Shown here: one piece after another, positions 26,834-30,680 of the stretch
How the letters are laid out: every line of letters starts with the position of its first letter
Position numbering within the stretch: position 1 is the first letter of the stretch
Source: Eledone cirrhosa
Taxonomy: Eukaryota
NCBI GenBank assembly: GCA_964016885.1
Contig: OZ024746.1
Coordinates: forward strand, 55,738,001 to 55,802,000
Direction: 5' to 3'
DNA length: 64,000 nucleotides
Made by a program: the position numbers and the translations under genes
Notes under the pieces: model-generated
The model's database searches: none
Told to the model about the DNA's origin: nothing
Seen by the model: only the letters and a program-made list of their open reading frames with translations

Positions 26834-27422
26834 TATATAATATAAATATATATATATATATAAACATGTGTGTGTGTATGTTTGTGTGTGTATATATATA
26901 TATAGAGAGAGAGAGATATGTACGTGTGTAGTGTATATCTATATATCTAGCTATATATCAATCTATCTATCTGTATATGTATATATATATATATATCTAT
27001 ATATGTATATATATAAATGTTTATATATATATATATATATATATATATATATATATATATATATATATATATATATACATATACGTGTTTTGCAACGGGT
27101 CACTTTGTGGCTCAATGAAAAGTTAATAAATTAAATAATCAGAGCTATATATCATAAAACATATCTATAGAATCACCAGATAAAATATATACCATTTCCT
27201 CTCCCAATTAGCATAATTAACTAGATACAAAATCGAATAGACCAGGCTATAAGAATAAGGCTTCTATGAACAAATCTCCAACAAATAACCGAAACTAGCT
27301 CTTCGCGTCGGCTACGACGGAATATTTATCGAATATTTCGACAGCGTAATCGCCCAGATACAGTCAATTAAACAGAATTAGGTGTAAAATAAACTAGGAG
27401 AAAAGAGAATACACTTAATGAC

Positions 27423-27495
27423 CTCTACCATGGTTTCGTCCGCATTTTATGATTTCCAATATCTTCGGAAATTCGAGCATCGGACTCTTCAGGAG
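27423..27495 (-). ncRNA. Type I hammerhead ribozyme with extended stem II
   Basis: CUC-CUGAAGA-GUCCG[..AUUUCCGA agaua UUGGAAAU..]CGGAC-GAAA-CCAUGG-UA-GAG. Confidence 0.85.
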
Positions 27496-28107
27496 TTTGC
27501 TCTAATCTAGACAATACATTTTCCAAAGTGATCGCGCCAAGAATACATTCAAAAATGGCTAAGAATCGTGACGTAGCAGCGGTCAGGTTGGAAGGAGTGT
27601 GGTAGTGACTTCTAGCTGGTGGCCTTTTGCTAGAAAGCACAGCACAATACAGTCAAATTTGTATCTCAACCTAATGGGAGATTATTACATATAAAGGTTT
27701 ATATATATATATATATATATATATATTTATATATATACATATACGTGTGGTTTGCAACGGGTCACTTTGTGGCTCAATGAAAAGTTAATAAATTAAATAA
27801 TCAGAGCGATATTTCATAAAACATGTCTATAGAATCACCAGATAAAATATATACCATTTCCTCTCCCAATTAGCATAATCAAACACACAAAATACCAATT
27901 AAACCAGGCTATAAGATTAAAAGGCACCTATGAAGAAGTAGTGGATAAATAAACGACACCCATCTATTCGCGGTCAACCACTAAAGAATATTTACCCAAC
28001 ATTTCAATACCACGTGGAAATGGATTAAATATACCGTCAACCATACATCTTTATGTATAAAATTAAAGTTTTAAAAGAAAAAATGCATATACACATACCA
28101 GGATTAC

Positions 28108-28189
28108 GTTTCCACCCCTTTGGGTTTCGTTCGCTTTCGGAAATATCCTATCAAGGATAAATTTTCGAGCTTCAAACTCATCAGGATAC
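28108..28189 (-). ncRNA. Diverged hammerhead with extended stem II (cleavage triplet appears to be GUG)
   Basis: GUAUC-CUGAUGA-GUUUG[..UAUCCU ugau AGGAUA..]CGAAC-GAAA-CCC aaag GGG-UG-GAAAC. Confidence 0.7.
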
Positions 28190-28939
28190 AAACTGAATGG
28201 GACAAAGATTTTTCTAAAATGATCCCCGCCGGAAACGAATTCAAAATGGCTAAGAACAGTGACGTGGCAGTGGTCAAGTCAGAGATAATGTGATTGATGC
28301 CTACGGGGAGTGGGCTGGTTGCTAGAAAGCGCAGCCCAATATTTCCCAAATTGCATCTCAACCTTATGGGAGATTATCAAATATAAAGTTATACATATAC
28401 ACAAACTAGACAAAGTCACAGATATATATGTTTTGGAAACCATTCACGGTGTGGCTCAATGATGAATTAATAAATTAAATAATCAGAGCAATATACTATA
28501 AAGTATGTCCATAGAAACATTTGATAATATATATTCACAATTTCCCCTCCCTATTAGCATAATCAACCACACAAAAAAACAATTAATCCAGGCTATAAGA
28601 TTAAAAGGCACCTATGAAGAAATAGTGGATAAATAAACGACAGCCGTCTCTTCACGGTCAACCGTTATAGAATATTTACCCAACATTTCAATAGCGCCTG
28701 GAAATGGATTAAATATACCGTCAACCATACACAATTAGGTATAAAATTAAAGTTAGAAGAAAAATGCATATACATATATATATATATTTATATATATATA
28801 TATATATATATATATATATATATATATAAAGAATTAGTATATCTACTAACATATATATGCAGATGCATACCTATGCCAGCAAATATATAGGTTTTGTCTT
28901 AGTAACTTTGTGGTTCAATGCATGGGGATGCAGAACAAT

Positions 28940-29414
28940 AATATGAAAGACGTAAAATGAGAAAATTATAAAAATTAACTTACTTACTAAAATTTCACTC
29001 CAACTAATTAGTTTCTGAAAGGGAATAAACATAGTTTCCGAAGGAACGACGGAGAAGCCTTTCGTCATCAGGGAAGTCTATTCTCAGATAAGTTTCCAGG
29101 CAATGCGTGGACACAGGGAACTTATACAAAAATAATTCAGTGGATGGAAAAAAGCAAAGCGTGGACTAAGTTCCAAGCCATTGAACTTAGTCCACGCTTT
29201 GCTTTTTTCCCGCACTGAATTATTTTTTTATAAGTTCCCTGTGTCCACACATTGCCTGGAGACTTATCTGAGAATAGACTTGCCTGATGACGAAAGGCAT
29301 CTCCGTACGTTTCTTCGGAAACTATGTTTATTCCCTTTCAGAAACTAATTAGTTGGAGTGAAATTTTAGTAAGTAAGTTAATTTTTATAATTTCTTATTT
29401 TATGTCTTTCATAT
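28940..29414. mobile_element. Near-perfect 475 bp fold-back element with HHR-like cores
   Basis: Arms of ~233 bp with a loop at ~29174-29182. CUGAUGA-CGAA...UUCG-GAAA-CUAUG-UU at 29284-29328 (+) with a mirror copy in the left arm. Confidence 0.85.
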
Positions 29415-29539
29415 ATATATATATATATATATATATATATATATATATATATATATATATATATATATATATATATATATATATATATATATATATATAT
29501 ATATATACATATATATATATATATATATATATATATATG

Positions 29540-29737
29540 AGTTTGGTAGAAGTAGTAACACAACAGTAAAATTCACCATACCGAGAACAATTGCATCACC
29601 TTGTCCGGATCTTCAGCTCGGACTGGTAATGGTATAACCGCATAACCATTACCAGTCCGAGCTGAAGATCCACATCAGTTGAAACAATTGTTCTCGGTAT
29701 GGTGAACTAACTTTTGTGCTACTACTTCTACCAAATT
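29540..29737. mobile_element. ~200 bp fold-back element with hammerhead
   Basis: Arms tttggtagaagtagt.../...actacttctaccaaa; HHR at 29657-29697. Confidence 0.8.
29657..29697 (+). ncRNA. Minimal type I hammerhead (weak stem II)
   Basis: CCGAG-CUGAAGA-uccacaucaguu-GAAA-CAAUUG-UU-CUCGG: perfect stem I and palindromic stem III. Confidence 0.7.
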
Positions 29738-29940
29738 CGTCCCATGGACTGAGTGCTCTCCTACTACGATTATTACCTTCCAGTTTTCTACCTCTCTCTC
29801 TCTCTCTCTCTCTCTGTCTCTCTCTCTCTCTCTCTCTCTCTCTCTCTCTCTCTCTATATATATATATATATATATATATATATATATATATATATATATA
29901 TATATATATATATATATATATATATATATATATATATATA

Positions 29941-30140
29941 TTTGACGTGGTGCAAAATCAAAACAATCTATTTTTGCGAGCAATGTACTTTGACGTAGAT
30001 TTAACCCCAAAAACTCCTTCCGAGCAATGTAAGGAACACTTTTGATTATTTATGCCCTTGAGAAGCCCAACGTGGCGAAACGTACGTAGATGCTGTTTCA
30101 AATAAACATGTTTTAACGGTCTATTCTTACTTACCAACGT
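29941..30140 (+). mobile_element. Short PLE-like 3' end with variant hammerhead, between (TA)n tracts
   Basis: CUUGAGAA-GCC caacgu GGC-GAAA-CGUACG-UA at ~30057-30088, followed by aataaa. Confidence 0.5.
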
Positions 30141-30174
30141 ATATATATATATATATATATATATATATATATAT

Positions 30175-30680
30175 ATATCATAAAACATGTCTATAGAATC
30201 ACCAGATAAAATATATACTATTTCCTCTCCCAATTAGCATAACCAACCATATAAAAAATCGATTTGACCAATCTATAAGAATACAGGCTTCTATGAAGAA
30301 ATCTCCGACAAATAACCGAAATCAGCCCTTCGCGTCAGTTGCGACGGAATATTTATCGAGTATTTCGACAGCGTCTATGAATCGCCCAGATATACAGTCA
30401 ATTAAACAGAATCAGGTGTAAAATAAACTAGGAGAAAAGTGAACATATTTAGTTACCTCTACCATGGTTTCGTCCGCATTTTAAGATATCCGATAGCTTC
30501 GGACACCTAGAGCACCGGACTCTTCAGGAAGTTAGCTCAAATTTAGACAATAAATTTTCCAAAGTGACCGCGCCAATAATACATTCAAAAATGGCTAAGA
30601 ATCTTGACGTAGCAGCGGTCAGGTTAGAAGGAATGTGGTTAGTTGCTTACGGCTGGTGGCTTTTTGCTAGAAAGCGCAGC
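30175..30680 (-). mobile_element. Solo copy of the ~660 bp HHR monomer family, between (TA)n tracts
   Basis: Homologous to 27150-27643. Confidence 0.85.
30455..30532 (-). ncRNA. Type I hammerhead ribozyme with extended stem II
   Basis: ACUUC-CUGAAGA-GUCCG[..GGUGUCCGA agcua UCGGAUAUC..]CGGAC-GAAA-CCAUGG-UA-GAGGU. Confidence 0.88.

What the first reader, a model, noticed from the sequence alone, without database searches (positions are those of the whole stretch)
27080..30680. ~660-nt monomer family whose hammerhead carries a long covarying stem II insertion
Seen: three HHRs (27423-27495, 28108-28189, 30455-30532) with a ~38-40 nt insertion in stem II. Its inner hairpin differs in sequence but pairs in each copy (AUUUCCGA/UUGGAAAU; GGUGUCCGA/UCGGAUAUC; UAUCCU/AGGAUA). 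The units are tandem, non-coding and separated by TA tracts. Inference: an atypical HHR architecture whose extended stem II may be a protein (RT) binding site or a tertiary-contact module. The monomer is longer than the few-hundred-nt metazoan retrozymes I recall.
Basis: partly seen in the sequence, partly recalled or inferred. Interest (0 to 1): 0.8.

Follow-up and report, generated by a model that had tools for sequence, protein, structure and literature searches.

The report
Knotted long-arm hammerhead in jumping repeat
Thousands of copies of a protein-free jumping repeat in this animal genome carry a predicted self-cutting RNA whose unusually long side arm likely works as a docking clamp, pairing with the RNA just upstream to hold the ribozyme in shape; the repeat type (retrozyme) is known, this clamp design was not found in the papers searched, and cutting is untested.

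Summary
The three hammerheads are real (minus strand), each with a 38-39 nt insert in stem II. They belong to a non-coding, (TA)n-targeting superfamily with 480-720 nt monomers and Penelope-style insertions: a non-LTR retrozyme. That class is known, and ~660 nt lies within its published 51-972 bp range. The long-stem-II form gives 4,598 pattern hits against 35 controls. A free position pairs in 97 of 100 listed hits (hand count), but an alignment test within one clade did not beat shuffles. Sister families have a U-rich loop and an A-tract partner, suggesting an ENE-like triple helix (inferred). Corrections: copy 2 has GUG, not GUA, and is a chimera; copy 3 is a separate insertion. Cleavage, circles and the driving Penelope element are not shown. 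The scan had already noted long-stem-II retrozymes on other DNA.

The parts
27080..27700 (-). Copy 1: full family A monomer arm (unit positions 1-621)
   Evidence: 97.1% to the family A majority sequence; 2,516 first-look candidates in the genome, 40 scored
27421..27502 (-). Hammerhead 1 with its 5' flank; predicted cut between 27426 and 27425 (GUA); core CUGAAGA; short palindromic stem III
   Evidence: weak Rfam Hammerhead_1 match, 18.8 bits against gathering score 34, E 0.63
27498..27502 (-). Pseudoknot 5' strand (GAGCA) just 5' of stem I; predicted to pair with 27475-27479
27475..27479 (-). Pseudoknot 3' strand (UGCUC): 5' side of the stem II internal loop
27452..27472 (-).
27443..27451 (-). 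A-rich 3' strand of the internal loop; inferred third strand across the pseudoknot helix
   Evidence: A-rich in 8 of 8 AB-clade and U-rich in 10 of 10 C/D/I/L representatives; role inferred
27095..27147 (-). Fixed insertion end (unit position 553-554 = about 27147), followed by a motif conserved across families A, B, C and D; inferred RT start and protein-binding region
   Evidence: 31 of 84 family-A-like arms end at 553-554; most B arms end at the homologous point; motif
27700..27743 (.). (TA)n tract at the monomer junction; internal to the family A repeat unit and variable in length
27745..27880 (-). A-type 3' piece (unit 484-616), the upstream partial copy of the copy 1 insertion
   Evidence: 97.7% to A, 83% to B
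27880..28400 (-). Copy 2, family B part, joined in register to the A piece
   Evidence: 93-94% to B; 3,904 first-look candidates, 40 scored
28108..28195 (-). Hammerhead 2, decayed: GUG at the cleavage triplet (28113), one stem I mismatch, first pseudoknot pair lost
28400..28770 (-). 5'-truncated family B copy without a ribozyme, head-to-tail with copy 2 and with no TA tract between them
   Evidence: 94.7% to B
30172..30681 (-). Copy 3: subfamily A2 arm (unit 57-554), ending at the fixed site in (TA)n; a separate insertion
   Evidence: 88% to copy 1; 95.9% to A2; 1,558 first-look candidates
30455..30538 (-). Hammerhead 3; predicted cut between 30460 and 30459; pseudoknot 30535-30538 (GAGC) with 30510-30513 (GCUC); 10-11 bp distal hairpin

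Best explanation
These are copies of a non-coding Penelope-type parasite (non-LTR retrozyme) inserted in TA microsatellites, and the long stem II of its type I hammerhead is likely a docking module: an internal loop whose 5' strand is predicted to pair with the bases just upstream of stem I, capped by a hairpin. Shown by sequence comparison: core, stems I/IIa/III, distal hairpin, complementarity of flank and loop, more-than-unit, partial-tandem and inverted insertions, fixed 3' ends in (TA)n, and no ORF. Inferred: (1) the pseudoknot holds stems I and II side by side in place of the usual loop 1-loop 2 contact; the helices IIa, pseudoknot and distal hairpin stack, and the loop's 3' strand crosses the pseudoknot (A-minor-like in the window's families, U.A-U triples in sister families); (2) read-through transcripts are cut at GUA, probably helped by dimerisation through the palindromic stem III, giving unit-length RNA that is probably circularised; (3) a Penelope RT/endonuclease binds near the conserved motif, nicks (TA)n, starts cDNA at the fixed internal site and copies more than one unit.
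For: Pseudoknot: a 4-8 bp helix in 16 of 16 representatives of clades AB, C, D and I; mean duplex -5.4 kcal/mol for cognate pairs against -1.5 for 170 cross-clade swaps. The partners change completely between clades (GAGY/RCUC, GGGG/CCUC, AAAGA/UCUUU, GGAAAA/UUUUCC). With the 4th pair left free on both sides, 97 of the 100 listed hits (of 1,491; control 1) pair, using all six pair types; about 62 are expected from the marginals (hand count; rows are related). In an unselected sample 22 of 26 hits reach -2.5 kcal/mol, against 0 of 26 for a more distal flank and 26 of 116 for viral chance matches. Distal hairpin z is -1.1 or lower in 17 of 18 representatives. Penelope signature: partial tandems and inverted arms; 77 of 84 arms end at one of two points; insertions that cross the cut site twice (L002, L004, L019, L023). 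An intact 785-aa Penelope-like ORF family is young (150 of 150 scored hits 100% identical over 143 aa), TA-targeted, and has two fixed 3' ends. One family A arm is fused directly to a 5'-truncated Penelope ORF of similar age. Pseudoknots raise hammerhead rates in other systems (PMC3088659, passages).
Against: No cleavage, structure or RNA data. The pseudoknot counted on a MAFFT alignment of the AB clade alone did not beat shuffles (75% paired, 175/500; three F rows out of register), though it beat slid registers (18-53%). Flank shuffles were as good in 17-63% of trials for 4 of 16 representatives. A within-family compensatory change (L135) proved to be a single copy. The A-rich/U-rich third-strand switch rests on about one independent transition between two clades. 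Families E, H and J have a long stem II without this pseudoknot, as does the active Penelope (88-91 nt). 0 of 49 internal 5' ends fall at the cut site, 3 of 49 within 10 nt. No pLTR homology was found to the one active Penelope family compared; the fusion is one case and could be a deletion.
Confidence: 0.65

Rival explanations
1. The stem II insert is mainly a binding site for the Penelope RT (or another protein) that chaperones the ribozyme; the pseudoknot is secondary.
For: The Anolis Penelope hammerhead cuts only with its protein (PMC11167929, parts 1-2 of 4). The insert keeps a similar length (48-55 nt stem II) in 18 of 18 representatives, and the distal hairpin is not obviously needed for a pseudoknot.
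Against: The hairpin's sequence and loop vary freely. Insertion ends track another conserved motif, at different distances from the ribozyme in A/B and in C/D. In the Anolis element the inferred protein site lies at the RT start, and ribozyme mutants do not affect insertion.
Confidence: 0.13
2. The units are solo pseudo-LTRs of an autonomous Penelope-like element not yet found, not a self-standing retrozyme; the ribozyme anatomy is the same either way.
For: Insertion structure is that of Penelope pLTRs. Animal retrozymes are argued to derive from pLTRs (bioRxiv 10.64898/2026.07.22.740005). Only a few Penelope families were looked at.
Against: Monomers close head-to-tail on themselves with fixed periods (482-485 nt, up to four in a row; 657; 679-686). 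In the loci inspected (L124, L134, L052, L156, L161) nearby Penelope ORFs had their own ends and different hammerheads or lay beyond TA tracts.
Confidence: 0.14
3. The insert is a tolerated, neutral elaboration inherited from one ancestor; flank/loop complementarity is incidental and the ribozymes are weak or vestigial.
For: All families descend from one ancestor, so rows are not independent. The within-clade alignment test was not significant. 8 of 9 tested Xenopus retrozyme dimers did not cut in vitro. No footprint at the cut site.
Against: Complementarity survives complete replacement of both strands between clades, and six pair types occur at one position. The core, GUA and palindromic stem III are kept in families that align poorly elsewhere.
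Confidence: 0.08

Closest known systems
Metazoan non-LTR retrozymes (Cervera and de la Pena 2020, PMC7229834: passages and section 14 read; Li, Clavereau, Pollet 2026, bioRxiv 10.64898/2026.07.22.740005: parts 1-3 of 5 read, supplements not seen)
   Same: Non-coding head-to-tail repeats with one type I hammerhead per unit, low GC (33-38%), short palindromic stem III, many solo copies, co-occurring Penelope elements; size inside the 51-972 bp range.
   Different: Stem II is 48-55 nt with an internal loop, pseudoknot and distal hairpin instead of about 4 bp plus a loop; (TA)n target; family A carries an expanding microsatellite inside the monomer; circular RNA not shown here.
Hammerheads in pLTRs of Penelope-like elements (Cervera and de la Pena 2014, PMC4209133, parts 1-2 of 4; Frangieh et al. 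2024, PMC11167929, parts 1-2 of 4; Craig et al. 2021, PMC8557442, passages, supplement rows and part 24 of 59)
   Same: Partial tandem and inverted arms, fixed internal 3' ends (tail), AT-rich targets, palindromic stem III, helix II longer than canonical.
   Different: Published helix II is 6-8 bp; no ORF here; no pLTR match found. The Naiad 'half core' I could read has its parts in the other order (GAAA first), so it is not this form.
Pseudoknotted hammerheads (Perreault et al. 2011, PMC3088659: passages and supplement text; figures not seen)
   Same: At least 4 Watson-Crick pairs join the peripheries of stems I and II; described for all three types and needed for fast cleavage.
   Different: Here the stem II partner strand is one side of an internal loop capped by an 8-11 bp hairpin, leaving a third strand alongside the pseudoknot helix. 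I did not find this in the passages read, but the figures and alignments were not seen.
ENE triple helices (review PMC13541005, passages)
   Same: [quoted passage not shown]
   Different: The A-tract is an encoded upstream flank, not a 3' poly(A) tail; the module would dock a ribozyme; the window's own copies have a GC-rich pseudoknot and an A-rich third strand, so they are not ENE-like.

Membership tests
Type I hammerhead ribozyme | Core CUGANGA...GAAA...NUH with stems I-III, open at stem I | tested here: met
   Copies 1 and 3 and family consensus rows. Copy 2 fails NUH (GUG); the NUH rule is recalled
Type I hammerhead ribozyme | Self-cleavage at the predicted site | not testable with these tools
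   No RNA holder listed; no 5'-end pile-up at the site in genomic arms (0 of 49)
Type I hammerhead ribozyme | Reaches an Rfam hammerhead gathering score | tested here: not met
   Only copy 1 is listed, Hammerhead_1 18.8 bits against 34; copies 2 and 3 not listed at E up to 10
Pseudoknotted hammerheads (Perreault 2011) | At least 4 bp between peripheral parts of stems I and II, with covariation | tested here: met
   the within-clade alignment count was not significant
Non-LTR retrozyme | Tandem repeats, each with a type I hammerhead | tested here: met
   Dimers in A, A2, B, G, D; up to four in a row in C. The three window copies are not one such array
Non-LTR retrozyme | Non-coding, low GC, a few hundred to about 1,000 nt | tested here: met
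   Longest ATG ORF 21/30 aa; GC 33-38%, 484-690 nt in 7 monomers
Non-LTR retrozyme | Expressed as circular and linear RNA | not testable with these tools
   No RNA run listed
Non-LTR retrozyme | Highly self-paired monomer | tested here: inconclusive
   z -1.8 to -5.1 in 7 of 7 monomers with only 12 shuffles each; copy 1 without its TA tract is at shuffle level
Non-autonomous Penelope-like element | Partial tandem or inverted 5'-truncated arms, fixed internal 3' ends, microsatellite target | tested here: met
Non-autonomous Penelope-like element | Sequence homology to the pLTR of an autonomous partner | tested here: inconclusive
   None beyond simple repeats and short words with the one active family compared; other families were not compared systematically; one direct fusion
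ENE triple helix | [quoted passage not shown] | tested here: not met
   Not met for the window's copies (A-rich 3' strand); met in sequence for sister families C, D, I, L
ENE triple helix | U.A-U triples form | not testable with these tools
   Needs melting, probing or a structure

The most novel reading that the evidence does not exclude
A natural hammerhead class that docks stem I on stem II with a triple helix: the upstream flank is clamped inside a stem II internal loop, by U.A-U major-groove triples (ENE-like) in one clade and by a GC-rich pseudoknot with an A-rich third strand in the other. It is the dominant retrozyme ribozyme of this genome and falls below Rfam thresholds, and after cutting the same clamp would sit at the 3' end of the unit RNA, where it could protect or present that end for circle formation.
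Probability: 0.35. Interest if true: 0.8.

Novelty: new variant of a known kind. Interest (0 to 1): 0.6.

Why it matters
Many retroelement hammerheads lack the canonical loop-loop contact and cut poorly in vitro, and how they work is open. This superfamily offers a specific, testable substitute contact with natural compensatory variants already in hand, and possibly a triple-helix-docked ribozyme, which I did not find in the searches listed. It also shows that short-stem descriptors and Rfam models miss the main hammerhead form matching this pattern in a 3-Gb animal genome (4,598 long against 272 short hits). The more-than-unit insertions and one fusion to a Penelope ORF bear on the proposed, unproven Penelope-driven copying of retrozyme RNA.

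Tried and rejected
Rfam over the whole window gave microsatellite-driven miRNA matches and three short HH9-like hammerheads elsewhere (81 lower rows not listed); in the region, one sub-threshold hammerhead match. The look-up of sequencing runs: no RNA holder listed. Laying two runs of unrecorded kind (contigs) showed only family variation, no information on ends. Naiad as source of this ribozyme: rejected for the one published cephalopod consensus whose tail I read, where the core parts are in another order (1 of 8 'half core' entries read). The L135 compensatory change: dropped, since 2 of 51 hits carry the flank change and only 1 of them the partner change. Family 'K' hits (L220, L226, L231): dropped, no GAAA at the right distance and they lie in what reads as an unrelated coding repeat; one search also double-counts overlaps, so its total is not used. 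Cleavage footprints at 5' ends: not seen. Formal pseudoknot count on alignment A5: not significant. Viral contigs: 2 of 116 distinct matches have both stems and 1 passes all filters, so no evidence of the architecture there; only about an eighth of the collection was scanned. Penelope ORFs next to L124, L134, L052, L156, L161: judged independent neighbours. No covariance model was built. Pfam found no family in the 785-aa ORF; it is called Penelope-like from motifs read by eye (YRDD, Cys cluster, GIY-YIG-like C-terminus; motif names recalled), its pLTR-ORF-pLTR layout, and tblastn links to window ORFs. Paper searches that found no description of this architecture.
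Full report
1. Observation. The region holds three hammerhead cores on the minus strand, with C3 at 27492, 28184 and 30527 and a stem II of 48, 49 and 49 nt. Rfam barely sees them: one match of 18.8 bits against a gathering score of 34. A core pattern with a 42-56 nt spacer has 4,598 genome matches against 35 for the reversed control; the same pattern with an 8-33 nt spacer has 272 against 84. The pattern demands GAG, CGAAAC and GUA, so it misses minimal Penelope hammerheads; the ratio holds for this pattern only.

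2. Corrections. Copies 1 and 2 are 72% identical. Copy 1 is family A (97.1% to its majority sequence). Copy 2 is family B from 28400 to about 27880 (93-94%) and family A from there to 27745 (97.7%); it is the only A-type arm among 26 examined. So the local order on the RNA strand is: partial B, B, in-register switch to A, TA tract, full A. Template switching, homology-guided joining or a later deletion could each make this. Copy 2 has GUG where 24 of 24 relatives have GUA (contigs agree), so it is predicted inactive (NUH rule, recalled). Copy 3 (A2) is a separate insertion beyond other TA-inserted elements.

3. The element. The genome is 3.0 Gb; earlier notes call it octopus-like, which I did not test. 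Among 84 family-A-like arms, 31 end at unit position 553-554 and 46 at 616-621; the 49 internal 5' ends are scattered, none at the cut site (276) and 3 within 10 nt. Loci show a truncated copy upstream of a full one, direct or inverted. In families B, F and G the junction has no long TA tract, so the monomer closes on itself; in A the junction holds an expanding microsatellite. Periods are 658-723 (A, 5 of 6 pairs), 679-686 (B), 657 (G), 482-484 (C) and 485 (D). Families A, B, C and D share motifs outside the ribozyme, and their insertions end just 5' of one of them. Several insertions pass the cut site twice (L002, L004, L019, L023), so the template was circular, multimeric or uncut. This matches the Penelope layout (PMC8557442, passages; PMC11167929, parts 1-2 of 4) and non-LTR retrozymes (PMC7229834, passages and section 14; bioRxiv 10.64898/2026.07.22.740005, parts 1-3 of 5, sizes 51-972 bp).

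4. Driver. A young Penelope-like family with an intact 785-aa ORF, a (TA)n target and two fixed 3' ends exists (no Pfam match). Its own hammerhead has an 88-91 nt stem II without this pseudoknot, and its pLTR does not align with the monomers. In locus L019/L202 a family A arm stops at unit position 435 and runs directly into a 5'-truncated ORF of a second Penelope family, with no clear microhomology and no remainder of A in the 9 kb fetched. The two A arms are 96.8% alike and the Penelope part is 95.7-97.8% like 11 relatives, so the ages fit one event. It is one case among the 30 family A loci, and the partner remains unassigned.

5. The insert. On 13 AB-clade representatives, stems I, IIa, distal and III are 94.4% paired, with 7 pairs changed on both sides (0/500 and 1/500 shuffles; slid controls 28-47%). 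The distal hairpin beats shuffles (z -1.1 or lower) in 17 of 18 representatives while its sequence varies. The 5' strand of the internal loop is complementary to the bases just 5' of stem I in 16 of 16 representatives of clades AB, C, D and I, by 4-8 pairs; cognate duplexes average -5.4 kcal/mol and 170 cross-clade swaps -1.5. Four further long-stem-II representatives (E1, E2, H, J) lack it. In the first 30 pattern loci, 22 of 26 distinct hits reach -2.5 kcal/mol, against 0 of 26 for a distal flank; viral chance matches give 26 and 31 of 116. With the fourth pair left free on both sides, the 100 listed of 1,491 hits show U-A 36, C-G 31, U-G 16, G-C 11, A-U 2, G-U 1 and 3 mismatches, against about 62 paired expected (counted by hand; rows are related, so this is a handful of independent changes). 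Against: on alignment A5 the pseudoknot was 75% paired and 175/500 shuffles matched it, with three rows out of register; flank shuffles were often as good for 4 of 16 representatives; one apparent compensatory change was a single copy.

6. Third strand. The loop's 3' strand is A-rich in 8 of 8 AB representatives, whose pseudoknot is GC-rich, and U-rich in 10 of 10 C/D/I/L representatives, whose flank is an A-tract. Three of those ten (I5, I6, L) came from a pattern that did not specify this strand. By eye, 3-4 U.A-U triples can be drawn, the anatomy of an ENE (PMC13541005, passages). This is inference from what may be a single evolutionary switch.

7. Mechanism. Shown: anatomy, complementarity, insertion structure. 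Inferred: the pseudoknot replaces the loop 1-loop 2 contact, as pseudoknots do in other hammerheads (PMC3088659, passages); the short palindromic stem III favours dimer cleavage (PMC4209133, parts 1-2 of 4); unit RNA circularises, as shown for coral, mussel and axolotl retrozymes; a Penelope RT primes at the fixed site. No RNA run was listed, and 8 of 9 Xenopus retrozymes did not cut in vitro, so activity cannot be assumed.

8. Novelty. The element is a new member of a known class. Pseudoknotted hammerheads are known. A pseudoknot into an internal loop capped by a hairpin, with a possible third strand, was not found in eight full-text searches or in passages of PMC10085705, PMC6155905 and PMC13725137. 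Figures and alignments of Perreault 2011, the supplements of the 2026 preprint and subscription papers were not seen and could hold it. Earlier notes of this scan had already reported long-stem-II retrozymes in this and other genomes, one calling a pseudoknot unproven; a look-up for the triple-helix wording returned nothing. Verdict: new variant of a known kind, interest 0.6.

Noticed in passing
L199:2428-4782 (+), G000:C4; also L185, L188, L195: Very young Penelope-like family: intact 785-aa ORF, 150 of 150 scored hits 100% identical over the C-terminal 143 aa, 60,392 first-look candidates (which include other families); its pLTR hammerhead has an 88-91 nt stem II and two fixed 3' ends about 110 nt apart. 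A candidate for in vitro work.
   Followed up: partly
L202:8748 (-), G000:C1: Direct fusion of a family A arm (unit position 435) to a 5'-truncated Penelope ORF of similar age; possible RT template switch.
   Followed up: yes
window 28944-29414: Fold-back of two arms (93% alike), each with a hammerhead-like core and an 18-nt insert in a 4-bp stem II (about 29285 on +, 29073 on -); a different TA-flanked element.
   Followed up: no
window 29539-29738 and 29942-30140: Two more short TA-flanked pieces: a 200-nt fold-back, and a piece with a decayed hammerhead-like motif near 30057-30090.
   Followed up: no
window 25500-26832, 2601-4600, 54514-55806: 3' ends of a Penelope-like family (weak GIY-YIG match at 3271-4032) with a short hammerhead-like motif near 26525.
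   Followed up: partly
window 53013-54073: 467-bp tandem and inverted units with short HH9-like hammerheads, 37.7 bits, below gathering.
   Followed up: no
window 38336-41537: Two opposed hammerheads with a 36-nt stem II flanking Penelope-like ORF pieces; the same ribozyme ends the Penelope in L202.
   Followed up: partly
window 18392-22004: LINE-like element: endonuclease, RT and zf-RVT matches in three frames.
   Followed up: no
L091, L106, L126, L130 (family E); L128; L137: Other long-stem-II hammerhead families without the flank pseudoknot; family E seems to have an extended stem I with an internal loop.
   Followed up: partly
PMC8557442 supplement part 24 (published Naiad consensus): The tail of a published cephalopod Naiad has the hammerhead core parts in GAAA-first order, in line with earlier notes on permuted Naiad hammerheads.
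   Followed up: partly
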